Part shown: one piece after another, positions 24,501-41,272 of the stretch
Layout of the letters: each line of letters starts with the position of its first letter
Numbering within the stretch: position 1 is the first letter of the stretch
Source of the DNA: an uncultured Planctomycetia bacterium
GTDB lineage: Bacteria; Omnitrophota; Gorgyraeia; 2-02-FULL-51-18
Direction: 5' to 3'
DNA: 64,000 nucleotides
Assembly: GCA_964606485.1 (NCBI GenBank)
Contig: CAZSGP010000001.1
Span: 33,085-97,084 of the forward strand
The notes under the pieces: model-generated
What the model was told of the DNA's origin: nothing
Databases searched by the model: none
What the model saw: only the letters and a program-made list of their open reading frames with translations
Position numbers and translations under genes: made by a program

Positions 24501-25031
24501 ATTTCAAATGACGGACGCAATCTCTTCGTGTCCAATACGCTCGACGGAACCGTTTCAAAAATTGATTCAAAAACCGGAAAAATGTTAAACACGTTTCAAG
24601 CGGGCACTCTGCCTTATGGGCTTTATGTTTCCAAAAACGGCGAGACGCTTTTTGCATCCGATTATAAAGAGGGCGTTGTGAGAGTGCTAGATACGACATC
24701 CGGAATCGAAAAAGCGAAGATTTCTGTCGGCGACGGGCCGTATTTGCTGGAAGCGGACGCCAAAGAGAACATTCTCCTCGTTTCAAACCGCAAAGATAAC
24801 ACCGTCTCTGTGATTGATATGGCGACGCTGACGGAGCGCACCAAGATTTCAGTTGGGGATCGTCCAATGGGCATGGCCATTACCCCAGAAGGTGATAAAG
24901 CATACGTCGCCAATCAACTGTCCAATACGGTTTCTTTGATTGATCTCAAATCCAACCGGGTTTTAGAAAATATTCCGACTGACTCGGCGCCCTCGCGAAT
25001 TCTTATCGGGGGTCATAAGGAGAAGGGCTGA
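18522..25031 (+). CDS. giant secreted TPS-domain exoprotein (TpsA-like adhesin) with beta-helix repeats, acidic Pro/Glu/Ser linker and C-terminal YVTN beta-propeller
   Basis: Signal peptide, then the filamentous-hemagglutinin N-terminal (TPS) domain with SVLSRVTGGGSSDIFGSLFSNGQLVLINQNGITF (NPNGI-type motif). Long Asn/Thr/Gly-rich parallel beta-helix repeats follow. The EPQPEEQP...KKEEKKDEEQ linker is followed by at least five YVTN-type propeller repeats (AFVTNAFTDEVTV, LFVSNTLDGTVSKID, AYVANQLSNTVSLID). Confidence 0.9.
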   Translation: MHMSGFLKQRVLALCLILVFGIEQAAFCLPQDWTVESGDVSFNVSEDNSMLTINASNNAIINFGSFNIGQGEMVQFIQPGMDSSVLSRVTGGGSSDIFGSLFSNGQLVLINQNGITFHDTANVQVGSLIASTLDIQSSLYLSNQFTFEKLNNSNPASIFNEGTITARDGGSIALLSDQQILNSGSITANLGSIALGVGEKQTISFDNNGLINLIIESPITTSGVGLGITNASTGLLQANGGRINLSVKTLNDVLDTLINNEGIIEATQAVERDGEIVFEANGIVETRGTISTTNLFINDKTTLNAHDTRFNIEGDWNNHGAFNGQESTVEFLGAKNIHYIYGDSDFYNLQAYGSNRAIFFESQKLQRVYGKLDLVGEFANLLKIHSTVLGSRYFLDVLGDSHLDFVDVQDSAQLGGDEILITRSHSDGNISGWNADPEWTNGTGDGFWNTGLNWDSGVVPGGGNTVTFTGNTGLYPQSDGNMTLNANPTIANLTIGAGYAGIFDLNGNTITITNSFTQNGGTVAGTGGGTIEVQAGGASVNGGAAGTWTGGRLFMNVGGSVTWTPGSVSWYDVQANLPGGGCCDNLTINGGDALVTNSFTLNGAELASGNINLQGNLFIANGAYGGGSITLMGTGLQEISQSAGSSPNVIINKASGTARIATGSIDYTFQSGRTFTMTSTGTGVFDLNGKTMIVPNFTQTAGTVTDSVGGGILRVTGAMTGVAGSWTAGSMDLNNAGNFTWTPGSTSYYDVSVHLPGGGCCDNLTVSGGSANVTHDLTLNSVEISSGNINVQRNLIMTANVAGGAGSVTLNGTGAQTISQGAGGSAPNITINKASGVASIDSGSSDISLQSGRTFTITDTGSGNFDLNNKLLITPHFVQTAGTVAGTGGGTLRVTQPGGTSGVAGTWTGGTLHLNQGGNFDWTPGNVNYYNVNVDFYGGGCCDTFRLLGGSQTAVITNNLTLTGGEYMAGIFDVRGNITTAAGWAGGIAWFTLSGSNNQTIDFSLGNDPDGNFTINKSAGTVSLLSDWVLDTAGQDLTITSGALDLDGHNLTVNDQFTIGDNGILRLLGSETVSAIDANTGTIVFDAPGGGALPGIPGGAGSYYGVGFAGAGSWTLGADLNISGNFLLQDTATVNFQNHNLAMGGSFQKSAGSTLSNLGLTTLNATGLAAAKTITTNGYNFSNMTVNGANRQWDMQDQLHVTGDLNIIAGTLNLAGSNLVVDSTFTNNGTLAMIGAETVSSIDAGNVSVSYTGTGTYNSLSLGNSYYNLTFNGAGTWNLNSDLTVTNDLTLTQGTLDLNSRNLAVTNNFVVGASGNLRLQGSETVSAIDTNNGTVTYYGAGNYTAASGGLVTGDTYNNLVFNGPGTWELDNNLTVNNNLTLTQGTVDINAHNLAVTTNFSIGATGNLRLQGAETVSTINTNNGTVTYDGAGNYTAAAGGLVAGDTYNNLVFNGSGTWALDNNLTVNNSLTLTQGTLDLEGRNLSVTGTFSNDAALRLQNTETITFTSGFDTNSGTVIYDGAGTYGALRAAMGNDYHNLTLTGAGTYNLGGVINVEGDFSNTATLNHSGTLILDNASVTSNINGSSTFNNLTINAGKTVRFAAATTTSVTGTFSAQGVALNQITLSSQTPGQTWNINPNAPGALLDYLNIQDSINTSGVLLNPANSVNLGNTTLWFPVPVVADQNTASVSQGVIAIQDSINITQPSNTAPVVSDNTQQPAASPVSEPQPEEQPVSSESKVESDPSAEPAVVEASTETKKEEKKDEEQASESEEPAQETKQTDSKENKPSAAAQSVEVPQEHLQEPMTKSDPFDFDKTLQFGKKGEDYISANTSEVDVNEGSVTVNGHLVYDGEKAYVKNFRDDQRNTVSTSTALHMRGVYIVTSEGMDVLRAKVHQPLNTHNTASPLVDIAESNQKNEVYLFSKGKQLSVMNTNSFNVKDYPVLKEGSSDALISPDDKQAFVTNAFTDEVTVLNLKDHSKAQTFESGAMPLQATISNDGRNLFVSNTLDGTVSKIDSKTGKMLNTFQAGTLPYGLYVSKNGETLFASDYKEGVVRVLDTTSGIEKAKISVGDGPYLLEADAKENILLVSNRKDNTVSVIDMATLTERTKISVGDRPMGMAITPEGDKAYVANQLSNTVSLIDLKSNRVLENIPTDSAPSRILIGGHKEKG
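20028..21654 (+). repeat. three in-frame 540-nt (180-aa) coding repeats inside the exoprotein gene, each with a GGGCCD vicinal-Cys motif
   Basis: Repeat units start FDLNG(N/K) at about 20028, 20574 and 21114. Each contains WTPG...YYDV...GGGCCD. They are diverged at about 50% aa identity. Confidence 0.85.
22317..23126 (+). repeat. three tandem in-frame 270-nt (90-aa) repeats (YNNLVFNG-PGTW...NLTLTQGT-DL...NLAVT...NLRLQG-ETVS...NNGTVTY-GAGNYTAA) with more degenerate copies upstream from about 21780
   Basis: Direct reading of the translated ORF shows units beginning near 22317, 22587 and 22857. They share about 75% aa identity. Confidence 0.85.
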
Positions 25032-25056: not shown

Positions 25057-25959
25057 ATGAGAAAATCAACTCTGTGGATTATTATTCTCGGCACTCTCAT
25101 TTCATCGCATGCATCCGCTTTCAAGCTTTCCGGTTTTGAAACTCCCGAAAGTTTTCTGGTGGACCCCGAAGATGGTTCTTATTACGTATCCAATATTAGC
25201 GGCGACCCTCTTGCTAAAGATTCAAATGGCTACATCTCTAAAATTACAGCCAACGGAAACACAGTGGTCCAAAAATTTATCGGCGAAAAGAAAGACGAAA
25301 TGCCGCTACACGCCCCGAAGGGCCTGCTCATCAGCGGAAAAATTCTTTTTGTCACTGACATCGATACGGTAAAAGGGTTTTACAAATCAAACGGAAAGCC
25401 CGCGGTACTCGTTGATTTGGCCGGTTGGAATGTGACGTTTCTAAATGATCTTGCCATGGATAAAGACGGGCTAATTTATGTGAGCGACATGCTCGCCAAC
25501 CGGATTTTTTCGATTAACCCCAAAAAAAATTACGAAGTGAAACTATTCAAGTCCGGTCCGGAACTCGGAAACCCAAACGGCTTAATGGTGAATCCTAAAA
25601 CCAAGTATTTGATGGTGGTGACATGGGGATCCGGTCAGATTTTGGAAATTGACCGTCGCACCGGAAAAGTGTTTGTGGTTAAAAAGGGTCTGATGGGTCT
25701 CGATGGAATTGATTCTGACGGAGAAGGAAATCTTTACGTCTCTAGTTTCCAAAAAGGGGAAATTTATAAAATTCCGAATCTTGGCCGCGGGACGCTCACC
25801 ACTTTCGAGGGGGGTCTTAAGACGCCGGCCGATATTTCTTTTGACCGCAAACGCAAAGAAGTTCTAGTGCCGTCTTTCGAAGGAAACACGGTGGAAACTG
25901 TTCCGGTGGTTCCAGTTAAAAAGGCCGAAAAAAGTAAGGATCTTAAGGTAGTAGAGTAG
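25057..25959 (+). CDS. secreted beta-propeller protein (SMP-30/gluconolactonase/NHL-like)
   Basis: Signal peptide MRKSTLWIIILGTLISSHASA. Repeated YVS / DG blade-like motifs. The family assignment is tentative. Confidence 0.6.
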   Translation: MRKSTLWIIILGTLISSHASAFKLSGFETPESFLVDPEDGSYYVSNISGDPLAKDSNGYISKITANGNTVVQKFIGEKKDEMPLHAPKGLLISGKILFVTDIDTVKGFYKSNGKPAVLVDLAGWNVTFLNDLAMDKDGLIYVSDMLANRIFSINPKKNYEVKLFKSGPELGNPNGLMVNPKTKYLMVVTWGSGQILEIDRRTGKVFVVKKGLMGLDGIDSDGEGNLYVSSFQKGEIYKIPNLGRGTLTTFEGGLKTPADISFDRKRKEVLVPSFEGNTVETVPVVPVKKAEKSKDLKVVE

Positions 25960-27367
25960 ATTCGATCGCGCGCTGACTAAACGCGATGAGTTCGTTTGGA
26001 AAGATTCCCAAGATCACAATTCCCGCAAAAAGCAGAATCCCTAAAATCTTAGCCCCCGTGCAAAGCTTGATCTCTGAGCTAGTTTTGGGCTTTTCAAGAT
26101 AAGCGTGTTTGACGAGTGTGAGATAGTAAAAAAGCGAAACCACGCTATTCAGAACGCCCCATAGCACTAAAAACCAATGCCCTTTGTCCATAGAGGCGGA
26201 GAACAAAATCCATTTACCTGTGAAGCCGACAAGCGGGGGAATGCCCGCAAGCGACAATAAGCTCAGCAAAAGAATCAGTGCGGTGAAGGGTGATTTTTCG
26301 GCCAAACCATCAAAGTGAGAAACCTGCGGGTTGTCGGTATTTTCAGCGCGCGAGACGACGAGTACAGTGAAAAATGCTCCGGTGTTCATGAGCACGTAGG
26401 CGACGGCATAAAAAAAGCTCGAGGTATACGCTTCAAAACTTCCAGCGAGCAAGCCCACTAAAATGTAACCCGCTTGCGCGATGCTTGAGTAGGCTAGAAT
26501 TCTTTTCACATCCGTCTGGACGAGGGCGGCAGCGTTACCAAGCGTCATCGATACAAACGCGATCACGCCAAGCATAGAAATAAGATTCGGCGAAAGCCCT
26601 AAGAAAATAAAAACACGAATGATAATGGCCACCGCTGCGGCCTTCGAGGCTGTGGCGATGAGTGTTGTGACAGGCGTGGCCGATGCTTCGTATACATCCG
26701 GCGCCCAGAAGTGAAACGGCGCTGCGGAGAGCTTAAAGAAAAACGAAAATAGTACAAAAATAAATCCAAGCACAAACGCGGGTTGCGTCATGTGTGCTGT
26801 GATGTGCGAAGAGATTTCTGGAAGTGATACGCTGCCGGAGACCCCAGCCATTAAACTCATGCCCCAGAGTAAAATGCCGCTTGTGGCTGCACCGAAAATT
26901 AAATATTTCGAGCTAGACTCCGCCACGCGGTAGTCCTTGCGAAGTGCCGATAGAAGGTAGAGCGAGTAGGATGAAAGTTCGAGTGAGACGTAAAGAGTTA
27001 AGAAATTCACGGCACTTGTCATCATCATCATTCCGAGTGTGGCTGTGGTTGCAAAAAGGAAATACTCCCCTCGGCGATGATCCGGAATCGAAATCGAGCT
27101 TTTCGTGAGAGCGAGCACCAAACAAAGGGCGAGTGCTAAAAGCGCTTTAAAGCCCTGCGATAAAAGGTCAATGCGGTATGTTCCTGAAAATAGAGTGATG
27201 GAGTATTGAAAGGTGTAAAAACAAACCCCGAGTGTGACGAGAGCTAGGCCTAGCAGAACCCCATTTTGAGATTTGCAGGAGCTGTCTTTTTTGACAACGA
27301 GGCCGATCAAGGTCATTGTCATCATGGCGGATAGTAAAATTTCAGGAAGCAGTGCCAATAGTTTCAT
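25943..27367 (-). CDS. nuoN: NADH-quinone oxidoreductase subunit N
   Basis: 474-aa antiporter-like subunit at the distal end of the nuo operon. Supported by operon order. Confidence 0.9.
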   Translation of the reverse strand: MKLLALLPEILLSAMMTMTLIGLVVKKDSSCKSQNGVLLGLALVTLGVCFYTFQYSITLFSGTYRIDLLSQGFKALLALALCLVLALTKSSISIPDHRRGEYFLFATTATLGMMMMTSAVNFLTLYVSLELSSYSLYLLSALRKDYRVAESSSKYLIFGAATSGILLWGMSLMAGVSGSVSLPEISSHITAHMTQPAFVLGFIFVLFSFFFKLSAAPFHFWAPDVYEASATPVTTLIATASKAAAVAIIIRVFIFLGLSPNLISMLGVIAFVSMTLGNAAALVQTDVKRILAYSSIAQAGYILVGLLAGSFEAYTSSFFYAVAYVLMNTGAFFTVLVVSRAENTDNPQVSHFDGLAEKSPFTALILLLSLLSLAGIPPLVGFTGKWILFSASMDKGHWFLVLWGVLNSVVSLFYYLTLVKHAYLEKPKTSSEIKLCTGAKILGILLFAGIVILGIFPNELIAFSQRAIESTLLP

Positions 27368-27373
27368 ATTCGT

Positions 27374-28831
27374 TTAAGCCCCTAGTAGCGCCCGAGTGGA
27401 CACTTGAATCCAATTAATGAAAATTTGCGGAAAAAGACCGAAGAAAATAAGACAGCCCACGAGAATAGCGCGCGGGATAAATTGAAACCCGTTAATGTCC
27501 TTGAAATCTGAATGGTGGTGGTTGACCGGACCATAAAAAACTTTTTGAATGGCGGTGAGCACATAATACGCGGTGATGAGGAGCGCAATGATGGACGTGA
27601 TTCCAATCACCGGATACTTTTCAACCGCGGCAATCGTGACGAGAAGTTCTGCCACAAAACTACCCATGCCCGGAAGCCCTAGACCGCAGAGACCGGCAAT
27701 GATGAAAAAGGCTGAGATCTTCGGCGCTTGCTTCGAGAGACCGCCCAGTTCGCTGAGCATGCGGGTGTGGCAACCGTCGTAAATAAAACCGACGCATGCG
27801 AAGAAAAGTGCGGTCATGATGCCGTGAGAGAACATTTGAAGAATCGCGCCATTAAAGCCAGCCGACGTCATGGTAGCAATTCCGAGTAGCACAATGCCCA
27901 TGTGGCTTACACTTGAGTAGCCGATAATGTATTTCATGTCTTTTTGCTGAGTGGCCACGAACGCGCCGTAAACAATGTTGCAGAGCGCGAGCCACGCCGT
28001 AAATTCGGCCCAGTGACGCGCGCCTTCCGGCAAGAGATACACCGCAACGCGTAAAATTCCGAATGCCCCAAGCTTCATAAGCACACCCGCGTGCAACATG
28101 CTTGCCGCAGTGGGGGCTGCCACGTGACCATCTGGCGACCACACGTGAAACGGGAAGCAGGCGGCTAGCACACCAAAGCCCACAAAGAGAGCCAGATATA
28201 AAATATTTTGAACCTGAGGCGTAAAGACCACATTTTCCTTAAGGAGCACAAGATCAAATGTATGGGAGCCGGGAAGCGAGTACATGTAAAGGAAGCCGGC
28301 GAACATCAGCGCGCTTCCAAGTAGGAGATACAACGTAAGTTTCATTGCAGCGTATTGTTTATTGGTCGAACCCCAGACCACGATTAAAAGGTACATCGGG
28401 ATCACGGCAATTTCATAAAAGAGAAAGAAGAAGAAAAGATTCGTTGTCATGAACACCCCGAACACGCCCGCGACCAAAAAGAGCATGTTCGCAAAAAAGT
28501 CTTTCACGCGGTAAGTGACGCTCCAGGAAACCAAAATGCCGCAGAAGATGACGATGGAAGTCAGAAGAATCATCGAAACGTTCAACCCATCGACGGCATT
28601 GGAGTAATTGATGCCGTAACTTGGAATCCAGGTGACATTTTCAACGAACTGGAAAGCACTGCTCGCCGAATTAAATTTAAAACATAGGATAATCGACAGA
28701 ACAAGAGTTGCTGCGGCTGAGATGAGCGAAGTGACTTTGATCAAGGTCTCGCATTTACGGGGCATGAGAAGCACCGCAAAAAGACCCACCACTGGACACA
28801 AAAGAATCGTTGTTAAAATCGGAAAACCCAT
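27374..28831 (-). CDS. nuoM: NADH-quinone oxidoreductase subunit M
   Basis: 485-aa Mrp-antiporter-like subunit. Supported by operon order. Confidence 0.9.
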   Translation of the reverse strand: MGFPILTTILLCPVVGLFAVLLMPRKCETLIKVTSLISAAATLVLSIILCFKFNSASSAFQFVENVTWIPSYGINYSNAVDGLNVSMILLTSIVIFCGILVSWSVTYRVKDFFANMLFLVAGVFGVFMTTNLFFFFLFYEIAVIPMYLLIVVWGSTNKQYAAMKLTLYLLLGSALMFAGFLYMYSLPGSHTFDLVLLKENVVFTPQVQNILYLALFVGFGVLAACFPFHVWSPDGHVAAPTAASMLHAGVLMKLGAFGILRVAVYLLPEGARHWAEFTAWLALCNIVYGAFVATQQKDMKYIIGYSSVSHMGIVLLGIATMTSAGFNGAILQMFSHGIMTALFFACVGFIYDGCHTRMLSELGGLSKQAPKISAFFIIAGLCGLGLPGMGSFVAELLVTIAAVEKYPVIGITSIIALLITAYYVLTAIQKVFYGPVNHHHSDFKDINGFQFIPRAILVGCLIFFGLFPQIFINWIQVSTRALLGA

Positions 28832-28871
28832 CGCTACCTTTCTGTCATTCCCGCGTAGGCGGGAATCTAAA

Positions 28872-30740
28872 CTATCTCAAAACAACTAAAAGAATGACCA
28901 GCACTCCACCCATAATCGAGAGTGTCAGATAATCCTGTAACAATCCATTTTGGATTCCGGACAATACTCGTCCGAGACGCATGACGCTAAAAGCGCTTTG
29001 GTTGACCATGAGGCCATTGATCACCGTGCGGTCAAACCAATCGAGAACCGCACCTAATCTTAGACCCACCTGCTTGACCATAAACGCATACGCATCATCC
29101 AAATAAAATTTATTTTCCAGAACCGAGCGCAAGCCCGAAGGCTTCGATAATTTCTCAAGTGCTTTTTTCGGATCGCGGAATTGCACAAAGGCGATGAGCG
29201 CGGCTGTCACAATTAAAATAGAAGTGGTTACTAGAATTTCAATATTGAGATGCGTTTCTTCACCACCCAGCCAATGCAGAAGCCGACTTCCCATAAAGGA
29301 GGTTCCAGAGAAACCCACAAAAAGTGAAATCAGCGCCAAGCTGACGAGTGGCAGAGCCTTGCAGAATTTGAGCAGCGATGATTCGTGATGCGCTTCATGC
29401 CCATGATGTTTGCCGTGAGACTCTTCCTTTGAAAGCGCGATCACAAAGAATAGTCGGAATGAATAATAAACGGTTAAAAAGCTGACGAGAATGGCTGCGC
29501 CATAGAAAAAGAGACTGTGTTCGCGCAAGGATTCTAGAATCATGTCCTTACTGAAGAATCCGGCAAACGGGAAAATCCCGCAGAGCGAGGCAAGGCCCAG
29601 TGCGAGGGCCGCCATCGAAAGAAGGTCTTTCTTGCCGCCTTTTTTTCCAATTTCAAAAATATCGTTGGTGTGGCATTGGTGAATGAAGGCGCCCGAGGTT
29701 AAGAAAAGAAGCGACTTGAAGTAAGCGTGTGTGGATAAATGAAACATGCCAGCGACCGGTGCGTGTGCGCCAATGCCCATGACCATGAGACCCAGCTGAC
29801 TCACGGTGGAGTAGGCAAGAATCTTTTTGATGTCCCGTTGGACGGTTGCGATCGCCGCGCTCGTGAGCGCTGTGAGTGTGCCGATAACGAGAATCACGTC
29901 TAACGTGTGAGCGGACGCGCTAAATAGACCAAATGCGCGTACCAGTAAGAAAACGCCCGCCGCAACCATGGTGGCGGAGTGAATCAGGGCGCTTACCGGT
30001 GTGGGGCCTTCCATGGCATCCGGGAGCCACACATGAAAGGGGAATTGAGCGGACTTGCCCATGACACCCATGAACACTAAAAGCCCAAGCAGCGTCAACA
30101 TATGAGGCGAGAAAGCCAGTTTTAAATTTTCAGCCGTAAGCAGGGTGAAATTTAAATGCCCAAAGGACAAAAAGAGCAGAACGATGCCCAGATAAAATCC
30201 GAGATCGGCTAGACGGTTAATGACAAATGCTTTGCGGGCGGCCGTCGCGGCACTTGGTTTCTGATACCAAAAACCGATGAGAAGGTAAGACGTTAAACCG
30301 ACAAGCTCCCAGAACAAAAAGGTTTGAAGGAGATTGTTTGAGAGCACCAGTCCCGTCATTGAAAACGAGAAAAAGCTTAAGAATCCAAAGTAGCGCGCGC
30401 GGGACTCATCCTCAGCCATGTAGTAGAACGAAAAGACCTGAACAAAAAAGGCAATGGTGGTGACGAGCGTAATCATTAAAAGATTGATGGGGTCAATCAA
30501 GAAGCCGACCGTTAGCGAATAGGATTCATTGACCGAAAGCCAGAGGCGTTCAAATTGAATGGGGAGCCCCGCTCCGTTTTGGTGAGCCCAGAAAAGGCGA
30601 AGGCTTGCGAGAGCTGCCAGGGCAGCAAAGCCCATGCCCACTGCCGGCGCAATGCGCTTTAAATTTTTAGGTAATAGCTGGATCAATAAAAATGCCACAA
30701 TCGGGGCAAGTTGAATGACCCACAATAACTTTAAATCCAT
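28872..30740 (-). CDS. nuoL: NADH-quinone oxidoreductase subunit L
   Basis: 622-aa subunit with the C-terminal long horizontal helix region. Supported by operon order. Confidence 0.9.
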   Translation of the reverse strand: MDLKLLWVIQLAPIVAFLLIQLLPKNLKRIAPAVGMGFAALAALASLRLFWAHQNGAGLPIQFERLWLSVNESYSLTVGFLIDPINLLMITLVTTIAFFVQVFSFYYMAEDESRARYFGFLSFFSFSMTGLVLSNNLLQTFLFWELVGLTSYLLIGFWYQKPSAATAARKAFVINRLADLGFYLGIVLLFLSFGHLNFTLLTAENLKLAFSPHMLTLLGLLVFMGVMGKSAQFPFHVWLPDAMEGPTPVSALIHSATMVAAGVFLLVRAFGLFSASAHTLDVILVIGTLTALTSAAIATVQRDIKKILAYSTVSQLGLMVMGIGAHAPVAGMFHLSTHAYFKSLLFLTSGAFIHQCHTNDIFEIGKKGGKKDLLSMAALALGLASLCGIFPFAGFFSKDMILESLREHSLFFYGAAILVSFLTVYYSFRLFFVIALSKEESHGKHHGHEAHHESSLLKFCKALPLVSLALISLFVGFSGTSFMGSRLLHWLGGEETHLNIEILVTTSILIVTAALIAFVQFRDPKKALEKLSKPSGLRSVLENKFYLDDAYAFMVKQVGLRLGAVLDWFDRTVINGLMVNQSAFSVMRLGRVLSGIQNGLLQDYLTLSIMGGVLVILLVVLR

Positions 30741-30743
30741 GAC

Positions 30744-31058
30744 TTATCCTTTTAAATCGTTCGCTTTCTCAATGCTGATCGAGTTTTTGACCCGGTACAA
30801 ATAAAGAATCAAGCTTAAACCAATGCTCACTTCCGCGGCGGCCAGAGCGATAATAAAAATCACAAAGACCTGCCCGACGGATTTATCCACTATAGAAAAT
30901 TTATTAAATGCTAAAAAGTTAATGCTCGCCGAATTTAAAATCAGTTCTAGTGAAATCAGAATGGCCACTAAATTGCGGCGAAATAAAAGTCCGGCGATCC
31001 CAATTGAAAAAAGGATTGTGGAAACAAGCAAATAGCTTTGAAGAGATTGGCTTAGCAT
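30744..31058 (-). CDS. nuoK: NADH-quinone oxidoreductase subunit K
   Basis: 104 aa with three TM helices, typical of NuoK. Confidence 0.9.
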   Translation of the reverse strand: MLSQSLQSYLLVSTILFSIGIAGLLFRRNLVAILISLELILNSASINFLAFNKFSIVDKSVGQVFVIFIIALAAAEVSIGLSLILYLYRVKNSISIEKANDLKG

Positions 31059-31549
31059 CAGCTTTTATCTCCCGAGATCACGAGCGCTCCGATAATGGCG
31101 ATGAGAAGCACAACTGAAACCGCTTCAAAGGGAAGAACGGCCTGAGTCATCAACGCGTGACCCACCGTTTTAAGCGAGTAGTCGCCTTCTGTAGAAGTTT
31201 GAGCAAAGCGTGTAGAGCTAATGACTTTCCAAATTCCAAGACCAAGCGCCACGGCTGCCATCACAGAGCGCGCCACTTTTTCTTTGGAGCGAGGCTCGCT
31301 TTCTTTTTGCATGGTTTGAGAGAGCATGATTGCAAAAATAATGGCAATGGAAATTGCGCCGATATAAATAATCACTTCAATCACTGCTAAAAATTCACTG
31401 TTTAAGAAAATGAATATTCCCGCCACACAGAAGAGACAAAGAATCAGCGAGAGCGCGTTGTAGAAAACATTCTTTAGTGCCACGGCTAAAATGGCCGCCG
31501 TGATCATGACCACACAAAGACCGGTGAAAATCCCGTTTGCCAGCATCAT
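31058..31549 (-). CDS. nuoJ: NADH-quinone oxidoreductase subunit J
   Basis: 163 aa. Supported by operon order. Confidence 0.88.
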   Translation of the reverse strand: MMLANGIFTGLCVVMITAAILAVALKNVFYNALSLILCLFCVAGIFIFLNSEFLAVIEVIIYIGAISIAIIFAIMLSQTMQKESEPRSKEKVARSVMAAVALGLGIWKVISSTRFAQTSTEGDYSLKTVGHALMTQAVLPFEAVSVVLLIAIIGALVISGDKS

Positions 31550-32094
31550 GTCGTTGCTCCTGCGGGTGGGGGAGGCGGCGTTGCTGCTGCCGGGGCCGCT
31601 GGTTTTGGAGCGAGTGTCTGACCGGGTGCCAAGAGCGGAATCTTGGTGAGCGGTGTTCCTTTTTTCTCAAAAGGTTCGAGCAAGTCCATAATCATTTCTT
31701 TTTGCGTTATGGCAACCATGTCGTAGTTCGGGGTATCGTGCTTTAAGGCGTCGGTCGGGCAAACATCAATGCACAAACTGCAGAGACTGCAGAGCATGTA
31801 ATTGACTTTAAAATCGGTGAGCACGCGCTTGCCGTCGACGGCACTCTTGCCAACCTCGAGCGACATGCAGCGCGAGGGACAGGTTTTAATGCAGGCGTTA
31901 CAGGCAATGCACTTGTGGTCGTTTGTTTTTTCATCGGTGATGAACGCAATGGGACCTTTGAAGCGCGTCATAGGAATGCGCTCAGTTGGGTAAATCACCG
32001 TCACCGGTTTTTTGAAGAAGTAACGCATTGTCACACCCATACCGGCGATGAGACTGTAAGCGCCTTCCCAGATATCAACTAAATATTTGACCAT
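31546..32094 (-). CDS. nuoI: NADH-quinone oxidoreductase subunit I (2x[4Fe-4S]) with Pro/Ala-rich C-terminal tail
   Basis: CIACNACIKTCP and CSLCSLCIDVCP ferredoxin motifs. The start is set at the internal MVKYLVDIW (the ORF track extends to 32220), giving an ATGA overlap with the nuoH stop. The C-terminal tail reads APKPAAPAAATPPPPPAGATT. Confidence 0.85.
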   Translation of the reverse strand: MVKYLVDIWEGAYSLIAGMGVTMRYFFKKPVTVIYPTERIPMTRFKGPIAFITDEKTNDHKCIACNACIKTCPSRCMSLEVGKSAVDGKRVLTDFKVNYMLCSLCSLCIDVCPTDALKHDTPNYDMVAITQKEMIMDLLEPFEKKGTPLTKIPLLAPGQTLAPKPAAPAAATPPPPPAGATT

Positions 32095-33065
32095 TATTTT
32101 ACAAACAATAAAACGCCTGCCGTTACAAGGAGATTCACGATACCAAACGGAATCAACACTTTCCATGCAAAACTCATGAGCTGATCGCTTCTTAAGCGCG
32201 GAAACGTCCAGCGAATCCACATCACGACGAATACGAGTGCATAAATTTTAATGAGAAGCCAAACAGGACCGGGTAAAAACGGACCTTGCCAGCCACCTAA
32301 GAAAAGTGTCGCTGCGATCGCTGACGAGATAAAAATAGCCGTGTATTCACCAAGGAAAAAGAGCGCAAAGCGCATACCGGAGTACTCGGTGTGAAAGCCG
32401 GCCACAAGTTCGGACTCCGCTTCGGGAATGTCAAACGGCGCACGATTCGCTTCCGCTAAGGCCGAGCAGATGAAAATAACAAATGCCAGCGGCTGAAACA
32501 AAATAAACCAATGATTGGTTTGGGCGAGCACCAAGTCTGTCATTTTAAGTGTCCCAGCAATCATCACGACACCCATGGTCGATAAAAGAAGCGGGATTTC
32601 GTAGGAGATATTTTGCGCCACTGCGCGCATCGACCCCAGTAAGGCGTACTTATTATTAGAAGACCAGCCCGCTGTGAAAATACCGATAAAACTGATGTTG
32701 GTGAGCGAGAAGACGAACAAGAAGCCGACATTTAAGTCTCGCATGATGAAATCTTTAGACAGCGGCAGAATGAGAAACCCACACAGAAGCGGCGCGAAGG
32801 CCAATGCTGGCGCCATGACGTACACGAATTTATCGGCTTGGCTGGGGAGAACAAGCTCTTTGGTGAGTAGCTTGATGGCGTCTGCTACGGTTTGTAAAAG
32901 CCCCTGGGGTCCAACGTGAATGGGGCCACGGCGGATCTGAATACGCGCGGCAACCCGGCGCTCCATCCAGACCAAAAAGAGGGCGTTCACGGAAATAAAT
33001 AAAATTCCGAGTGTTCCGTAAATAACGATTTTTAGAAGTTCTTGAAAATAAAAATTACCAAACAT
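32094..33065 (-). CDS. nuoH: NADH-quinone oxidoreductase subunit H
   Basis: 323-aa NuoH/ND1 family protein (VWMERRVAARIQIRRGP). Confidence 0.92.
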   Translation of the reverse strand: MFGNFYFQELLKIVIYGTLGILFISVNALFLVWMERRVAARIQIRRGPIHVGPQGLLQTVADAIKLLTKELVLPSQADKFVYVMAPALAFAPLLCGFLILPLSKDFIMRDLNVGFLFVFSLTNISFIGIFTAGWSSNNKYALLGSMRAVAQNISYEIPLLLSTMGVVMIAGTLKMTDLVLAQTNHWFILFQPLAFVIFICSALAEANRAPFDIPEAESELVAGFHTEYSGMRFALFFLGEYTAIFISSAIAATLFLGGWQGPFLPGPVWLLIKIYALVFVVMWIRWTFPRLRSDQLMSFAWKVLIPFGIVNLLVTAGVLLFVK

Positions 33066-33136
33066 TTAACATTCCCAATGTAGGGGCGCGGTTTACCGCG
33101 CCCATTTTTGGGCGGGATGAATCCCGCCCCTACGTT

Positions 33137-34759
33137 TTATCGATCGATTTCTGGTAAAACAATATCAATACTTCCCAATACCGCCACCACGTCGGAGACG
33201 AGGCAGCCCGGAAGCATATCCACAATTGCATTCAAATTCGAAAAAGACGGTGTTCTTAGCTTAATCCGGTAAGGATTCAGCGTTCCGTCGCTCACTAAAT
33301 AAATTCCAAATGATCCGCGAGGCGACTCTACCGCCGAGTAATACTCACCCTTCGGCACATTTTTGGGAAGTTTCCCAAGTGTGACCGGTCCTTCGGGCAT
33401 TTGGGAGATTACTTGCTCAATAATTTTTAAACTTTCATGCATTTCCTCGACTCGGACATTGAAGCGCGCAAAAATATCGCCCTCGGTGCGGGTAGGGACT
33501 TTAAAATCAAGTTTCGGATAAATGGAATACGGCTCATTGCGTCTCAAATCAAACTCAACGCCGCAAGCACGTAGCGTTGGCCCTGTTACGCCGTAGGCGA
33601 GAGCGGATTCGCGCTTTAAATAGCCCAGTTTCTGAACGCGGTGTTTGAAAATAACGTTCTTTGTGATCAACGTGTCGTAATCTTTTAAATGTTGGCGAAA
33701 GTGCGGAATAAAGGACTTGATCGCCGGAATCATTTGCGGAGGAATATCTTTGTCGAGCCCGCCAAAGCGGAAATAATCGTAGGTCAAGCGTTCGCCGGTG
33801 GCGAGTTCCAAAATATCTAATAATTTTTCGCGGTCATCAAAGCAATAAAAGAAGGGGGTGAAGGCTCCCAAATCCATTAGGAAAGTTCCAAGCCACAACA
33901 AATGAGAGGTGATGCGGTTTAGTTCTGCGCAAAGCACGCGAATGTATTCGACGCGCGCAGGAGGTTCAATGCCCATGGCTTTTTCAATCGCAATGGCATA
34001 GCCAAAGTTGTAGCTCATCGCACCGATGTAATCAAGTCGACCCATGTTCGGCCAGCAGGCGAGATAATTTTGGATTTCCATCATCTTTTCGTGATGACGG
34101 TGCGAGTAGCCAAGCACCGGCTCGCCGTCTAAGACGCGTTCGCCGTCCAAATGAAGCAAGACGCGCAACACGCCGTGCGTGCTAGGGTGCTGAGGACCCA
34201 AATTCAAATAATAATCTTTTTGGTGTTGCGTGATGGACTTGGGGTATTGAATTTCAAACCCATCTTTGTCTTCATTAATCAGTTTCAAGCTTTGCTCAAC
34301 GTCGGACCCCGCCGGCTCACCCTTAAAGCTTTTTAAGAGCGGGTGAATGGTCGAGCTATCTGGAAGCAAAATTCTTTTTAAGTCCGGGTGTCCTTCAAAA
34401 CGAATGCCGAACATGTCGTACACTTCGCGTTCGAGCCAATTGGCCGCGCTATAGACCGAAGAGATGCTGGGCGCGCTGTTGGCTGCTTTGTCGACGAGAA
34501 TTTTCACGCAGGAGCGCTGAGTGTTTTCATATTTATTGAAGTGATAAACAATTTCAAAGCATTCGGCAAAGTCGACGGCGGTGAGCGATTCTAAAAAATA
34601 CCCTTGAGTCAAATATTCATGCGCAACTTCTTTAATTTTATTTTGCGCGACAATGGCTTCAAAGAGAATTCCCGATTTTTGAATGTCTTTTTCAACAAAT
34701 TCTTCAGGCTTAATGGTTTCTAAAAGCCAGGATTTGATGTTTTTTTCGAGGACGGCCAT
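33137..34759 (-). CDS. nuoCD: fused NADH-quinone oxidoreductase subunits C and D (NuoCD)
   Basis: N-terminal 30-kDa (NuoC) region followed by the 49-kDa NuoD region (LNLGPQHPSTHGVLRV). Total 540 aa. Confidence 0.92.
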   Translation of the reverse strand: MAVLEKNIKSWLLETIKPEEFVEKDIQKSGILFEAIVAQNKIKEVAHEYLTQGYFLESLTAVDFAECFEIVYHFNKYENTQRSCVKILVDKAANSAPSISSVYSAANWLEREVYDMFGIRFEGHPDLKRILLPDSSTIHPLLKSFKGEPAGSDVEQSLKLINEDKDGFEIQYPKSITQHQKDYYLNLGPQHPSTHGVLRVLLHLDGERVLDGEPVLGYSHRHHEKMMEIQNYLACWPNMGRLDYIGAMSYNFGYAIAIEKAMGIEPPARVEYIRVLCAELNRITSHLLWLGTFLMDLGAFTPFFYCFDDREKLLDILELATGERLTYDYFRFGGLDKDIPPQMIPAIKSFIPHFRQHLKDYDTLITKNVIFKHRVQKLGYLKRESALAYGVTGPTLRACGVEFDLRRNEPYSIYPKLDFKVPTRTEGDIFARFNVRVEEMHESLKIIEQVISQMPEGPVTLGKLPKNVPKGEYYSAVESPRGSFGIYLVSDGTLNPYRIKLRTPSFSNLNAIVDMLPGCLVSDVVAVLGSIDIVLPEIDR

Positions 34760-34763
34760 CGGA

Positions 34764-35405
34764 TTATCCTTGCGCCGGGGCCGCTGGCGCTGCCGGAGCG
34801 GGAGGAGGAACTGGTTTTCTAAATTCCGCTCGAGAAATGGCGTTTTTGTATTCGGCCGGGCGATTGTCCTGAGAGTCTTTGACCACCGCAGGCGACATAT
34901 GCGCTTGGAGTTTTCCGGAGATAATTTGTTTTTTGAGTTCTAAGAGTCCGGCAATCAGCGCTTCGGGGCGGGGCGGACAGCCCGGAACGTAAACATTCAC
35001 CGGAATAATTTTATCAATGCCTTCCAAAATGCCGTACTGGCCCGGGTATTTGAATGGACCGCCGGCAGTCGCACAACCACCAAGCGCAATCACATACTTG
35101 GGAGCAGGCATCTGGTCATACAGCGTCTTAATACAAGGAACCATCTTGCGGGAAATCGTCCCAGCCACAATCATTAAGTCCGATTGACGAGGAGAGGGGC
35201 GAGCGACGCCAAAGCCAAAACGGTCTAAATCAAAGCGCGCCGCGCCCCCGGCCATAAATTCAATGGCACAACAGGCTAGTCCAAAGGTGAGCGGCCAGAG
35301 AGAATTTGCGCGCGCCAAATTGAACGCATCTTCCACTCTAAAAAAATTCACAAGACCTGGAGCGGGCGTCTGAGTGTTCATGAGTTCATTCGTGTTTACT
35401 TCCAT
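34764..35405 (-). CDS. nuoB: NADH-quinone oxidoreductase subunit B with Pro/Ala-rich C-terminal tail; start uncertain
   Basis: CCAIEFMA and GCPPRP motifs. The C-terminal tail reads [16 protein letters not shown]. The start is chosen at MEVNTNEL; the ORF track's longer N-terminus would overlap nuoA heavily. Confidence 0.85.
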
Positions 35406-35761
35406 TCGAACAAGCCCCTTCTCCACGCATACAGAATGGCAAAAGAAAGAATCAGTAGAAAAATCACAAGCTCCAGAAATACGATGGGGCTTAACCACTC
35501 GCGGTAACCGACGAGCACGGGAAAAAGAAATGCGGTTTCTACGTCGAACACTAAAAAGATAAGCGCAAAAAGATAATAGTTAACGTCAAATTGAATCCAA
35601 GCACTACCGATCGGTACTTCCCCGCTCTCGTAAGGATCGGAAGCGCGCTCTCCACGGCTTTTGTGGCTAATGAAAAGAGGAAGAATGGTATTTACGACGA
35701 CAAAGCCGATGCCGATGATCAAAAAACCGAGTACGTAGGAATAATCGTGCAGAAGAGACAT
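35396..35761 (-). CDS. nuoA: NADH-quinone oxidoreductase subunit A
   Basis: 121 aa with three TM helices. It is the first gene of the operon, with a divergent promoter region upstream. Confidence 0.9.
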
Positions 35762-35828
35762 TCAAACTCCAAAAGTTTATCCGCAAAGTATATAAAAAGC
35801 GCACTTTGAAGTCAACGCCTCTCGGGTT

Positions 35829-40095: not shown

Positions 40096-41222
40096 AATTT
40101 AAGGCATTCCCCGCAGCTTTAGCGGTATTTTTTTGTTTTTCAGCTTATGCCGCCACCGATGAAAGTGTTGTTTCAATCGGGGTGGTGGCGCCGCTCACTG
40201 GTGATCAGGCCTATATCGGAACGGGTGTTCAGCAAGGCGTCCAAATGGCTGTCGAAGACGCCAATATCAAGGGTCCTGTTTTTGGAAACACCAAACTAAA
40301 AGTTCTGCCGCTTGATGACCAGCATAATCCTACCCAAGCGGTGCTTGCGGCGAACAAATTTGCGGCAGACAGTTCGGTGGTGGCCGTGGTCGGACATTTT
40401 AATTCGAGCTGCAGCAAGGCTGCGTCTTCCATTTACCACGAAGCGCGTTTAGCACAAATCAGTCCCGGTTCCACCAATCCTGAAATATCCAAACAAGGGT
40501 ACGACACTTTTTTTCGCGTGTGCGCAACGGATGATGTGCAGGCTCCGGCAGGGGCAGATTTTATTTTTAAAAAATTGGGCCTTAAAAAAATTATTTTAAT
40601 TGATGATCAAACCACTTACGGGAAGGGGCTTGCCGACGAGCTCGATAAGCGCTTTAAGAGTCTCGGTGGAGAAGTGCTTTTTAGAAGCGGAATCACGCAG
40701 GGCGAAAAAGATTTTACACCGCTTTTAACCAAAGTAAAATCCATGAAGCCGGAGCTTGTGTTTTACGGCGGGGTATACCCAGAGCTCGCTTTGCTTCTCA
40801 AGCAAGCCAAAAAAATAGGTCTGAGTGTGCCTTGGATGGGAGGCGACGGAATTTTTGACGTGACCTTGATTCAGCTTGCGGGCGCTTCCAGTGAGGGCGT
40901 ATATTCGACGATGATCGGTGTCGATCCCCATTCGCTACCGGCGGCACAAGACTTTGTCGCACGGTATGAGGCGCGGTATGGCGAGATTGGTTCATATTCC
41001 TCGTACGCCTATGATGCTACGAATATTTTAATTGAAGCCATCCGGAAGGCGGGTCGTCCTGACCGCGAAGCGGTGCTCAAAGAAGTTCACGCCACCAAAG
41101 ATTTCCCGGGAATTTTAGGGCCGGTGAATTTTGACGCAAACGGCGACGCCATCGGTAAGAGCATTGGTATTTTTCAAGTTCAAGGTGGAAAATTTGTTTT
41201 CTTGCAAGAGGTAGGGGCGTGA
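40092..41222 (+). CDS. livK: branched-chain amino acid ABC transporter substrate-binding protein (LivK/LivJ-like)
   Basis: Signal peptide and a periplasmic-binding-protein type I fold. It sits upstream of livHMGF. Confidence 0.88.
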
Positions 41223-41272
41223 TTCATCACGCCCTTCTTTAAATACGGGCGCAATGAATTGCGCCCCTACGA

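What the first reader, a model, noticed from the sequence alone, without database searches (positions are those of the whole stretch)
25943..35761. 11-subunit complex I operon lacking the NADH-dehydrogenase module (no nuoE/F/G), with fused nuoCD
The gene order is nuoA-B-CD-H-I-J-K-L-M-N, with nuoH directly after nuoCD (a 71-nt spacer). The absence of nuoEFG implies that the electron donor is not NADH via the canonical N-module. It may be ferredoxin- or F420-type, as in NDH-1 or Fpo-like systems, unless EFG are encoded elsewhere. This is physiologically informative for an uncultivated organism.
Basis: partly seen in the sequence, partly recalled or inferred. Interest (0 to 1): 0.55.

Follow-up and report, generated by a model that had tools for sequence, protein, structure and literature searches.

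The report
Headless complex I operon in Omnitrophota
The window holds an intact respiratory complex I operon without its NADH-oxidising head, a known kind of enzyme, but the same organism very probably carries the missing head genes in a second, partial complex I cluster on another contig.

Summary
On the minus strand, 25943-35761 holds nuoA-B-CD-H-I-J-K-L-M-N, with fused nuoCD and a 71-nt CD-H spacer. No NuoE/F/G homolog occurs anywhere in the 64-kb window. The organism is a Candidatus Omnitrophota MAG. The operon belongs to a large multi-phylum clade of EFG-less operons, the known 'headless' or 11-subunit complex I-like kind. Cofactor and quinone-site residues are intact, except that NuoM lacks the ion-pair lysine (Leu222), which is a clade-wide trait.

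The inference that the organism lacks an NADH module is probably wrong. Close relatives carry a second cluster, nuoA-B-C-TPR-D-E-F-G-H-I, without J-N. In at least 3 relatives it is shown by coordinates to lie on the same contig as the headless operon, and about 10 more are inferred from matching contig lengths. The start of this cluster, and a bona fide NuoF, come from the window's own sequencing run (SRR12487046) and from one 401-kb NCBI contig, with composition matching the window.

The operon therefore most likely encodes a second, non-NADH (probably ferredoxin-fed) quinone reductase and proton pump. Membership of the NDH-1 and Fpo families, and any F420 link, are not supported. It remains open whether its J-N subunits also serve the NADH-type arm. 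Verdict: new member of a known kind, modest interest.

The parts
35787..35815 (-). sigma-70-like promoter candidate (TTGACT-17-TATACT) in the 67-nt gap upstream of nuoA
   Evidence: 10 of 12 consensus positions, the best site in the region. This is a consensus match only. The total number of promoter-like sites in the region is no higher than in shuffled sequence.
35396..35761 (-). nuoA (121 aa)
   Evidence: PF00507, E = 1.7e-27. Asp73 and Glu75 align to E. coli D79 and E81.
34764..35405 (-). nuoB (213 aa), carrier of cluster N2, with a Pro/Ala-rich C-terminal tail
   Evidence: NF005012, 217 bits against a cut-off of 116. Cys45, Cys46, Cys111 and Cys143 align to the E. coli N2 ligands C63, C64, C129 and C158. 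The start follows the public gene call. Tail sequence.
33137..34759 (-). fused nuoCD (540 aa) with the quinone-site His195 and Tyr244; its D part lacks a segment of about 25-32 aa present in canonical NuoD
   Evidence: PF00329 plus PF00346. The best solved relative is E. coli NuoCD, where the alignment jumps from query 461/468 to chain 491/524. H195 and Y244 align to E. coli H224 and Y273 and are invariant in relatives.
33066..33136 (-). 71-nt nuoCD-nuoH spacer holding two GC-rich hairpins nested in an outer stem
   Evidence: RNA fold of -37.1 kcal/mol, z = -4.5, matched by 0 of 200 shuffles. No U-run follows on the sense strand. On the antisense strand both hairpins score as terminator-like. 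Relatives have no spacer at this position.
32094..33065 (-). nuoH (323 aa)
   Evidence: PF00146, E = 2.3e-120. NF004741, 371 bits against a cut-off of 305.
31546..32094 (-). nuoI (182 aa) with two CxxCxxCxxxC motifs (clusters N6a and N6b) and a Pro/Ala-rich C-terminal tail
   Evidence: TIGR01971 and Fer4 families. Motifs at residues 62 and 102.
31058..31549 (-). nuoJ (163 aa)
   Evidence: PF00499, E = 2e-33.
30744..31058 (-). nuoK (104 aa)
   Evidence: PF00420, E = 1.5e-24. Glu38 and Glu76 align to E. coli E36 and E72.
28872..30740 (-). nuoL (622 aa), antiporter-like subunit about as long as E. coli NuoL (613 aa)
   Evidence: NF005141, 562 bits against a cut-off of 556. E145, K229, H334, H338, K398 and D399 are conserved relative to E. 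coli.
27374..28831 (-). nuoM (485 aa), antiporter-like subunit without the TM7 ion-pair lysine (Leu222)
   Evidence: TIGR01972, 472 bits against a cut-off of 264. E140, K253 and E395 are kept, but E. coli K234 aligns to Leu222. Confirmed against plant ND4. All 32 closest NuoM sequences have Leu at this position.
25943..27367 (-). nuoN (474 aa)
   Evidence: TIGR01770, 365 bits against a cut-off of 333. E130, K212, K242 and K385 are conserved.

Best explanation
The ten genes form one tightly packed operon in a Candidatus Omnitrophota bacterium. [quoted passage not shown] The parts are the quinone-reducing arm NuoB (cluster N2), fused NuoCD (quinone site) and NuoI (two 4Fe-4S clusters), and the whole membrane arm NuoA, H, J, K, L, M and N.

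It most likely takes electrons at NuoI from a soluble low-potential carrier, with reduced ferredoxin the leading candidate. It passes them through N6a, N6b and N2 to a membrane quinone and pumps protons.

The absence of the head is not a recent loss. The EFG-less gene order is ancestral to a large multi-phylum clade. The organism very probably also has an NADH-oxidising module. That module is encoded with its own nuoA, B, C, D, H and I in a second cluster on another contig. The headless enzyme would therefore be an additional, donor-specialised entry point to the quinone pool rather than the cell's only complex I.

What is shown: gene content, gene order, cofactor ligands and clade membership. 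What is shown by linkage evidence: the second cluster occurs in relatives and in the window's own sequencing run. What is inferred: the donor identity, proton pumping, and the assignment of the second contig to the same genome.
For: The ligands are intact. These are the four N2 cysteines, both NuoI cluster motifs, the NuoD His/Tyr pair, and the NuoA, K, L and N charged residues.

The host is Omnitrophota. The best named hits are Candidatus Omnitrophica, and a 100% identical protein lies on a 546,306-bp NCBI contig.

The same A-B-CD-H-I-J-K-L-M-N order is found in Omnitrophota at 60-80% identity, in a Chlamydiae MAG and in several other phyla. Those phyla are Latescibacterota, Desulfobacterota, Gemmatimonadota, Planctomycetota and Eisenbacteria. 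E-F-G between D and H appears only in hits at or below 42% identity. In a neighbour-joining tree of NuoD, all D->H operons form one clade, apart from the D->E operons and from Omnitrophota NuoD2.

The second cluster A-B-C-TPR-D-E-F-G-H-I is seen in relatives at known coordinates. In GCA_022072175.1 the two clusters flank a 10,120-aa gene, and the same holds in ERZ27253376. They are directly adjacent in JACQQY010000056.1.

For the window organism itself, P0159 (NuoD2) lies in run SRR12487046, the run that also holds the window's operon contig. That contig has GC 0.470 and a tetranucleotide correlation of 0.962 with the window, within the range of the window's own chunks. P0318 on a 401,265-bp contig passes the NuoF equivalog cut-off, 612 against 559 bits.

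On function, B. fragilis NUO lacking NuoEFG contributes no NADH:quinone activity (PMC7002350). Inhibitor and proteome data for the D. hafniense 11-subunit enzyme point to PFOR and ferredoxin (PMC11238625). Omnitrophota commonly encode PFOR (PMC10066038).
Against: No donor gene (ferredoxin, PFOR, hydrogenase or flavodoxin) lies next to the operon in the window, so the ferredoxin assignment rests on analogy.

NuoM lacks the ion-pair lysine that is described as conserved in every antiporter-like subunit (PMC9271201). The pumping stoichiometry or mechanism may therefore differ.

The link between the 401-kb contig and the window's genome is circumstantial. It rests on the same run, the same composition and the precedent of relatives. 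One unrelated Omnitrophota locus (L009) also reaches a correlation of 0.957, and the identity-pattern test was weak (r = 0.47). NCBI record names could not be retrieved.
Confidence: 0.7

Rival explanations
1. Shared membrane arm. The operon's nuoJ-K-L-M-N are the organism's only copies. They serve two alternative assemblies. One is the headless enzyme (A1, B1, CD1, H1, I1 plus J-N). The other is a 14-subunit NADH enzyme built from the second cluster (A2, B2, C2, D2, E, F, G, H2, I2) plus the same J-N.
For: The second cluster stops after nuoI in every Omnitrophota instance read: L089, L093, L095, L099 and L179. The only J-N genes seen near it are those of the headless operon. They lie divergent across one giant gene, or directly adjacent in L008.

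In other taxa the same split type of A-I cluster lies convergent to a stand-alone nuoJKLMN. Its NuoM shares the Lys-less SMLHAGVL(M/K)K signature of this operon's NuoM. That kind of membrane arm therefore does accompany NADH-type arms.
Against: Split A-I and J-N arrangements are the rule for the cluster-2 family. None of 34 loci runs from I into J, and J-N often lies outside a 10-kb flank. A dedicated J2-N2 cluster elsewhere in the genome is therefore quite possible. Whole genomes could not be searched. NuoH1 and NuoH2 share only about 36% identity, so both would have to fit the same NuoJ, K and N surfaces.
Confidence: 0.35
2. The NuoEFG encoded in the second cluster docks onto this operon's own Q-module (NuoCD1, I1, B1). 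The operon would then in fact yield an NADH-dependent complex I.
For: NuoEFG probably exist in the genome. Spero et al. note that Syntrophobacter fumaroxidans has one nuoEFG set and two sets of the other genes, which could give two isozymes (PMC4453560).
Against: E, F and G sit between their own D2 and H2 in the second cluster.

The EFG-less order is conserved across many phyla.

NuoD1 lacks a segment that is present in every EFG-linked NuoD sampled. The segment spans 7-13 residues in 73 D->H operons, against 32 in 7 D->E operons and 83 in NuoD2. This is only a correlation, because cyanobacterial NdhH appears to keep the segment.

B. fragilis headless NUO shows no NADH activity.
Confidence: 0.1
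3. The enzyme runs mainly in reverse or without redox chemistry. It would use the proton-motive force to push electrons from quinol to a low-potential carrier, or its antiporter-like subunits would act in cation/proton exchange.
For: Complex I is reversible. A secondary antiport role has been suggested for the headless NDH-I of Prevotella (PMC6560451). The altered charge network in NuoM allows for non-standard coupling.
Against: All redox ligands and the quinone site are conserved, which argues against a purely non-redox role. Nothing in the window speaks to direction.
Confidence: 0.1
4. The operon is a decaying remnant with no function.
For: One conserved lysine is missing in NuoM.
Against: All ten ORFs are intact and tightly packed. 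The Lys-to-Leu change, together with a His at position 247, is fixed in all 32 closest homologs across at least 9 phyla. Subunit identities of 57-85% to relatives indicate purifying selection.
Confidence: 0.02

Closest known systems
'Headless' 11-subunit NDH-I (NUO) of Bacteroides and Prevotella
   Same: It has a nuoA-B-CD-H...N operon with fused NuoCD and no NuoEFG. Experiments show that it does not oxidise NADH, and the donor is unknown (PMC7002350; PMC6560451).
   Different: The phylum differs. Bacteroides-type operons were not among the 80 closest NuoCD relatives. The Bacteroidota that did appear were 14-subunit operons at about 41% identity. Bacteroides is reported to use NQR and NDH2 for NADH, whereas this lineage appears to carry a second, NADH-type nuo cluster.
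[quoted passage not shown]
   Same: It has the same subunit set and no N-module. It is proposed to be a menaquinone-reducing entry point for cytoplasmic electrons from PFOR and ferredoxin (PMC11238625). The short NuoD form aligns end to end with NCBIfam NF008974, a 366-aa NuoD model.
   Different: nuoC and nuoD are written as separate genes there (nuoABCDHIJKLMN) and are fused here. All equivalog scores here fall below the cut-offs.
E. coli-type (clade E) 13-gene complex I with fused NuoCD
   Same: It has a fused NuoCD. E. coli NuoCD is the best-scoring solved relative at 348 bits. Spero et al. find that fusion is nearly confined to clade E (PMC4453560).
   Different: E. coli has nuoE-F-G between CD and H, a NuoD about 32 aa longer and the canonical NuoM Lys234. 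The window's NuoD falls in a separate clade.
Cyanobacterial and plastid NDH-1 (ferredoxin:plastoquinone oxidoreductase)
   Same: It has 11 homologous core subunits and no N-module, and ferredoxin is the donor. This is the working analogy for the mechanism (PMC8165549).
   Different: NdhH, NdhI, NdhA and similar models score far below their cut-offs. No oxygenic-specific subunits are encoded nearby. NdhH and NdhJ are separate genes.
Fpo (F420H2 dehydrogenase) of Methanosarcinales
   Same: The core is homologous. FpoD aligns end to end with the short NuoD form.
   Different: FpoD scores 351 against a cut-off of 600, FpoH 291 against 475, and FpoL 340 against 1050. There is no FpoF or FpoO. The window's CofD-like gene is YvcK.
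Split nuoA-I plus nuoJ-N complex I gene arrangement
   Same: The second cluster of this lineage (A-B-C-D-E-F-G-H-I) is of this split type.
   Different: In Omnitrophota a TPR gene sits between nuoC and nuoD. The only J-N genes seen nearby belong to the headless operon.

Membership tests
11-subunit ('headless') complex I-like enzyme | All eleven core subunits A, B, C, D, H, I, J, K, L, M and N are encoded together | tested here: met
   There are ten genes, with C and D fused.
11-subunit ('headless') complex I-like enzyme | No nuoE, nuoF or nuoG in or beside the operon | tested here: met
   There are no Pfam hits in any window ORF. The best six-frame tblastn hit has E = 0.35.
11-subunit ('headless') complex I-like enzyme | The Q-module is of the complex I type: N2 ligands in NuoB, two 4Fe-4S motifs in NuoI, quinone-site His/Tyr in NuoD, and no NiFe-binding cysteine motifs | tested here: met
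   The NuoD N-terminal motif reads LGPQHPSTHG and the C-terminus reads VLPEIDR, with no CxxC motif.
11-subunit ('headless') complex I-like enzyme | Antiporter-like subunits carry the conserved Glu/Lys ion pair, the central Lys and the distal Lys or Glu | tested here: inconclusive
   NuoL and NuoN are complete. NuoM keeps E140, K253 and E395 but has Leu222 in place of the ion-pair Lys (PMC9271201).
11-subunit ('headless') complex I-like enzyme | The enzyme does not oxidise NADH and uses another donor | not testable with these tools
   This needs biochemistry. It is supported only by analogy.
   This is probable, not proven. NuoD2 and NuoE lie on a contig from the same run with matching composition. 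A NuoF equivalog lies on a 401,265-bp contig. Relatives hold both clusters on one contig.
Canonical 14-subunit Nuo (clade E, fused CD) | nuoE-F-G lie between nuoCD and nuoH, and the NuoC/D equivalog model is passed | tested here: not met
   H follows CD after 71 nt. NF008728 scores 454 bits against a cut-off of 840. The operon falls in a separate clade in the NuoD tree.
Cyanobacterial/plastid NDH-1 | Ndh-type core subunits pass the equivalog cut-offs | tested here: not met
   NdhH scores 364 against 583, NdhI 56 against 302, Ndh subunit 4 370 against 645, and NdhF 440 against 963.
Fpo / F420H2 dehydrogenase | Fpo subunit models are passed, an FpoF input subunit is present, and there is F420 biosynthesis | tested here: not met
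   FpoD scores 351 against 600, FpoH 291 against 475, FpoK 92 against 145, and FpoL 340 against 1050. No FpoF is present in the window. The CofD-family ORF is YvcK, with TIGR01826 at 373 bits and TIGR01819 at only 30.
Group 4 membrane-bound [NiFe] hydrogenase (Mbh, Ech, Hyc) | The large subunit has NiFe-ligating CxxC motifs and there are few antiporter-like subunits | tested here: not met
   Mbh and FHL chains are the weakest solved matches, at 173 and 159 bits against 348 for NuoCD. There are no CxxC motifs. Three full antiporter-like subunits are present.

The most novel reading that the evidence does not exclude
In this Omnitrophota lineage one set of membrane-arm genes, nuoJKLMN of the headless operon, may serve two alternative peripheral arms. 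One arm is headless and probably ferredoxin-fed (A1, B1, CD1, H1, I1). The other oxidises NADH (A2, B2, C2, D2, E, F, G, H2, I2) and is encoded in a second cluster that has no J-N of its own. The NuoM of this shared arm naturally lacks the ion-pair lysine. The cell would then build two complex I isoforms on a common, atypical proton-pumping module.
Probability: 0.3. Interest if true: 0.6.

Novelty: new member of a known kind. Interest (0 to 1): 0.33.

Why it matters
For metabolic reconstruction of Omnitrophota, the result corrects two opposite shortcuts. One reads 'complex I present, so NADH feeds the quinone pool' (Seymour et al.). The other reads 'complex I fragmentary, nuoG absent' (2026 preprint).

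This lineage appears to have two complex I-type systems. One is a headless 11-subunit operon. The other is a split NADH-type cluster whose short NuoG scores just under the curated threshold, 449 against 470 bits.

For complex I mechanism, there is a large natural clade of NuoM subunits without the Glu/Lys ion-pair lysine. It occurs both in headless operons and next to NADH-type clusters. This offers a ready-made test of models that treat that pair as essential.

The operon itself is an ordinary member of a known class.

Tried and rejected
1. I tried to obtain the NCBI assembly and contig names for the window and for the 401-kb contig, to prove that they belong to one MAG. The look-ups returned only Logan or ENA contigs, or nothing.

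2. I tried an identity-pattern test to tie NuoD2 (P0159) to the window genome. It was too weak to use, with r = 0.47 and rank 34 of 120.

3. Tetranucleotide similarity is consistent with one genome but not discriminating. One other Omnitrophota species reaches 0.957.

4. I considered whether the three small ORFs after nuoI2 are NuoJ or NuoK. They are not. They have no Pfam match, include no convincing membrane proteins, and one is a thioredoxin-like 2Fe-2S ferredoxin at weak score.

5. I considered whether the gene between nuoC2 and nuoD2 is a new redox subunit. It is a TPR protein with a hydrophobic N-terminal segment that looks like a signal or anchor, judged by eye from the sequence.

6. 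The F420 idea was rejected, because the CofD-family ORF is YvcK.

7. The 71-nt spacer has no Rfam family and does not look like a sense-strand terminator. One similar hairpin lies at 41215-41234, so it is probably a generic intergenic GC hairpin.

8. A literature search found no earlier description of the Lys-less NuoM clade or of the two-cluster layout. That absence is not proof of novelty.

9. I did not use structure prediction. The tools return no coordinates, so the position of His247 relative to Leu222 could not be measured.


Full report
**1. The observation**

The region 25943-35761 carries ten consecutive minus-strand ORFs whose ends match the finding's coordinates exactly. Pfam and NCBIfam assign them to NuoA, NuoB, NuoC+D (one 540-aa protein with Complex1_30kDa and Complex1_49kDa), NuoH, NuoI, NuoJ, NuoK, NuoL, NuoM and NuoN. 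E-values range from 1e-24 to 1e-168.

An independent gene call on a public contig with the identical sequence gives the same ten genes. It also fixes the starts of nuoB (213 aa) and nuoI (182 aa).

The genes overlap or lie a few bases apart. The exceptions are a 71-nt gap between nuoCD and nuoH (33066-33136) and a 40-nt gap between nuoL and nuoM.

None of the other ORFs of at least 120 aa in the 64-kb window has a NuoE, NuoF or NuoG domain. A six-frame tblastn with E. coli and Omnitrophota NuoE/F/G finds nothing better than E = 0.35.

**2. Whose operon it is**

NuoCD has a 100% identical database entry on a 546,306-bp NCBI contig and in Logan run SRR12487046. The next hits are 75-80% identical, and where they are named they are Candidatus Omnitrophica/Omnitrophota. 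Chlamydiae MAGs follow at about 55%.

The flanks are ordinary. Upstream lies a divergent PMT-family glycosyltransferase. Downstream lie a convergent SMP-30/β-propeller-like gene and a 2,169-aa TPS-domain protein.

**3. Is the enzyme intact?**

I aligned each subunit to E. coli (locus). The conserved features are as follows:
- The four N2 cysteines are present in NuoB (C45, C46, C111, C143).
- Both CxxCxxCxxxC motifs are present in NuoI.
- NuoD has the quinone-site His195 and Tyr244.
- NuoA has D73 and E75, and NuoK has E38 and E76.
- NuoL and NuoN carry the complete charged sets.

These rest on my recollection of the E. coli residue numbers, checked against the aligned letters.

There is one exception. 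In NuoM, the lysine of the Glu/Lys ion pair (E. coli K234) is Leu222. The solved-structure alignment to plant ND4 confirms this. PMC9271201 states that each antiporter-like subunit contains such a pair.

This is not damage. All 32 closest NuoM sequences, from Omnitrophota, Chlamydiae and at least seven other phyla, have Leu there. They also share a clade-specific His247, and they keep Glu/Asp140, Lys253 and Glu395.

**4. How common this gene order is**

A scan of one genome per GTDB species with a NuoCD alignment returned 80 loci. I mapped all Nuo subunits on them by tblastn.

Essentially every relative with at least 43% identity has A-B-CD-H-I-J-K-L-M-N. These relatives include Omnitrophota, Latescibacterota, Desulfobacterota, Gemmatimonadota, Planctomycetota, Eisenbacteria, Sumerlaeota, Myxococcota and Verrucomicrobiota. 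Some have an extra NuoL-like gene.

E-F-G between D and H appears only at or below 42% identity, in Pedobacter, Dyadobacter, Mucilaginibacter, an Anaerolineales MAG and a Myxococcota MAG.

In a rough neighbour-joining tree of NuoD, all D->H operons form one clade that contains the window. That clade is separate from E. coli plus the Bacteroidota D->E operons.

The D->H clade also shares a short NuoD. In the stretch corresponding to E. coli 492-523 it has 7-13 residues in 73 sequences, against 32 residues in the seven D->E operons.

The headless state is therefore old and clade-wide. It fits the '11-subunit' or 'headless' complex I-like enzymes already described in Firmicutes and Bacteroidetes (PMC11238625; PMC7002350; PMC6560451).

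NCBIfam scores place the subunits with bacterial Nuo, not with Ndh or Fpo. For example, NdhH scores 364 against a cut-off of 583, and FpoD scores 351 against 600.

**5. The twist: nuoEFG are very probably elsewhere in this organism**

One Omnitrophota contig from the scan (L008) shows a second, divergent nuo cluster beside the headless one. It reads A-B-C-x-D and is followed by a NuoE fragment.

Searching with that second NuoD gave about 120 Omnitrophota homologs of roughly 450 aa. Many lie on contigs of the same length as those holding the headless NuoCD. The matching lengths are 113793, 213111, 125012, 198795, 310258, 128097, 1594128, 43224, 55353 and 22226 bp.

Coordinates confirm this for two genomes:
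- **GCA_022072175.1 (JAJVIE010000003.1).** The headless operon is at about 163-185 kb (reversed), a 10,120-aa gene follows, and the second cluster is at about 207-216 kb.
- **ERZ27253376 (k141_797675).** The layout is the same, around a 9,204-aa gene.

In every instance the second cluster reads (response regulator)-nuoA-B-C-TPR protein-D-E-F-G-H-I. It then runs into unrelated genes, and J, K, L, M and N are absent.

The evidence for the window's own organism is as follows:
- NuoD2 protein P0159 occurs in run SRR12487046, the run that contains the window's operon contig. It lies on a 7.8-kb contig reading RR-HK-nuoA-B-C-TPR-D-E, where the contig ends. It is also on a 401,265-bp NCBI contig.
- That contig has GC 0.470, against 0.478 for the window. 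Its tetranucleotide correlation with the window is 0.962 and the distance is 0.0089. This equals the window's own 7.8-kb chunks, which give 0.94-0.97.
- A NuoF (P0318) on a contig of the same 401,265-bp length passes the NuoF equivalog cut-off, 612 against 559 bits. By eye it also shows glycine-rich and cysteine motifs of the kind I recall for the FMN and N3 sites of NuoF.

I could not retrieve the assembly accession to prove that both contigs are in one MAG. I put the probability that the window's genome has this cluster at about 0.8.

The short NuoG (527-541 aa) scores 449 bits against a cut-off of 470. This may explain why a recent KO-based survey found nuoG 'entirely absent' in 176 complete Omnitrophota genomes.

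**6. What the second cluster means for the first**

The cluster-2 family is a split type. In 34 metagenome loci with enough downstream sequence, nuoI is never followed by nuoJ. In eight loci J-N lie convergent downstream as a stand-alone five-gene unit. In five loci they lie upstream on the same strand.

The NuoM of the convergent stand-alone units also lacks the ion-pair lysine, with Ile or Thr in its place. It shares the SMLHAGVL(M/K)K motif of this window's NuoM. The upstream type has the canonical lysine. Lys-less membrane arms are therefore found next to NADH-type arms in other taxa.

In Omnitrophota the only J-N genes seen near cluster 2 are those of the headless operon. This allows, but does not prove, that the operon's membrane-arm genes serve both peripheral arms. 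A dedicated J2-N2 set elsewhere in the genome is equally plausible, and I could not search for it.

**7. Most likely mechanism**

The operon encodes a functional quinone-reducing proton pump without a built-in NADH dehydrogenase. Electrons would enter at NuoI from a soluble low-potential donor.

Ferredoxin is the leading candidate, for three reasons:
- Cyanobacterial NDH-1 works this way.
- The D. hafniense data point to PFOR and ferredoxin.
- PFOR is common in Omnitrophota.

No donor gene lies in the window.

Some Desulfobacterota members of the clade do carry candidate input genes beside the operon. These are a NuoE-like gene, a 617-aa HydB/FdsB-type NuoF-like gene, a protein with only the NADH_4Fe-4S domain, and a NuoG/molybdopterin-like protein. 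This fits the idea, cited, that the headless enzyme is a docking platform for different donors.

The presence of a separate NADH-type cluster in the lineage makes it more likely, not less, that the headless enzyme is specialised for another donor.

**8. Verdict**

The operon is a new member of a known kind.

The secondary findings are leads worth a specialist's look, but they are not established here. They are the paired clusters in Omnitrophota, the possible shared membrane arm, and the large Lys-less NuoM clade.

Noticed in passing
window 27374-28831 (-), NuoM residue 222; related loci L002-L077: NuoM lacks the TM7 lysine of the Glu/Lys ion pair (E. coli K234 aligns to Leu). The change is fixed in all 32 closest homologs across at least 9 phyla, together with a clade-specific His247. 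Stand-alone nuoJKLMN units next to NADH-type nuoA-I clusters in metagenomes (L119, L122, L127, L132, L138, L150, L164, L173) also lack it, with Ile or Thr in its place.
   Followed up: partly
window 33137-34759 (-), NuoCD residues ~461-468: The NuoD part lacks about 25-32 residues present in E. coli (492-523), mitochondrial, Thermus and cyanobacterial homologs. All 73 EFG-less operons sampled are short, all 7 EFG-containing ones are long, and Omnitrophota NuoD2 is longer still (83 residues). The structural role of the segment was not determined.
   Followed up: partly
window 34764-34900 and 31546-31680 (-), C-termini of NuoB and NuoI: Both NuoB and NuoI end in Pro/Ala-rich tails, for example [16 protein letters not shown] and APKPAAPAAATPPPPPAGATT. 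The tails are conserved in Omnitrophota headless operons (L002, L004). They are absent from the Chlamydiae homolog and from the second-cluster NuoB2 and NuoI2.
   Followed up: partly
window 33066-33136; also 41215-41234: The nuoCD-nuoH spacer folds into two GC-rich hairpins inside an outer stem (-37 kcal/mol, z = -4.5). On the antisense strand they look like terminators. Relatives have no spacer at this position. A similar hairpin follows the periplasmic-binding-protein gene at 41215-41234.
   Followed up: partly
L008 (JACQQY010000056.1); L089, L093, L095, L099, L179; L092 (SRR12487046): Omnitrophota carry a second nuo cluster, nuoA-B-C-(TPR protein)-D-E-F-G-H-I. It has no J-N. It is usually preceded by a response regulator and separated from the headless operon by a single 9,204-14,047-aa gene. 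A TPR gene inside a nuo operon is unusual.
   Followed up: yes
L053 6741-9075 and 18926-21554; L080 6755-9705; L039 19068-19520: Desulfobacterota members of the EFG-less clade have extra redox genes flanking the operon. These are a NuoE-like gene, a 617-aa NuoF-like gene with added Fe-S domains, a protein with only the NADH_4Fe-4S domain, and a NuoG/molybdopterin-like protein. They are candidate alternative input modules.
   Followed up: partly
window 18522-25031 (+) and 44936-53221 (+): The window holds two very long ORFs. One is a 2,169-aa protein with a TPS secretion domain and a C-terminal β-propeller. In relatives the SGL-like gene and the PUA-methyltransferase gene are adjacent, and here this ORF lies between them. 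The other is a 2,761-aa protein combining HATPase_c, NUDIX and a PLP-dependent enzyme domain.
   Followed up: no
window 54157-55425 (+): A CofD-family ORF next to a PTS EIIA-2 gene is YvcK (TIGR01826, 373 bits), not the F420 biosynthesis enzyme CofD (30 bits). It gives no support to an F420-linked reading.
   Followed up: yes
window 25057-25959 (+): A 300-aa SMP-30/gluconolactonase-like (ScyE-family-like) gene lies convergent to nuoN and overlaps it by 17 nt. It keeps this position in Omnitrophota relatives (L002, L004). Its function is unknown.
   Followed up: no
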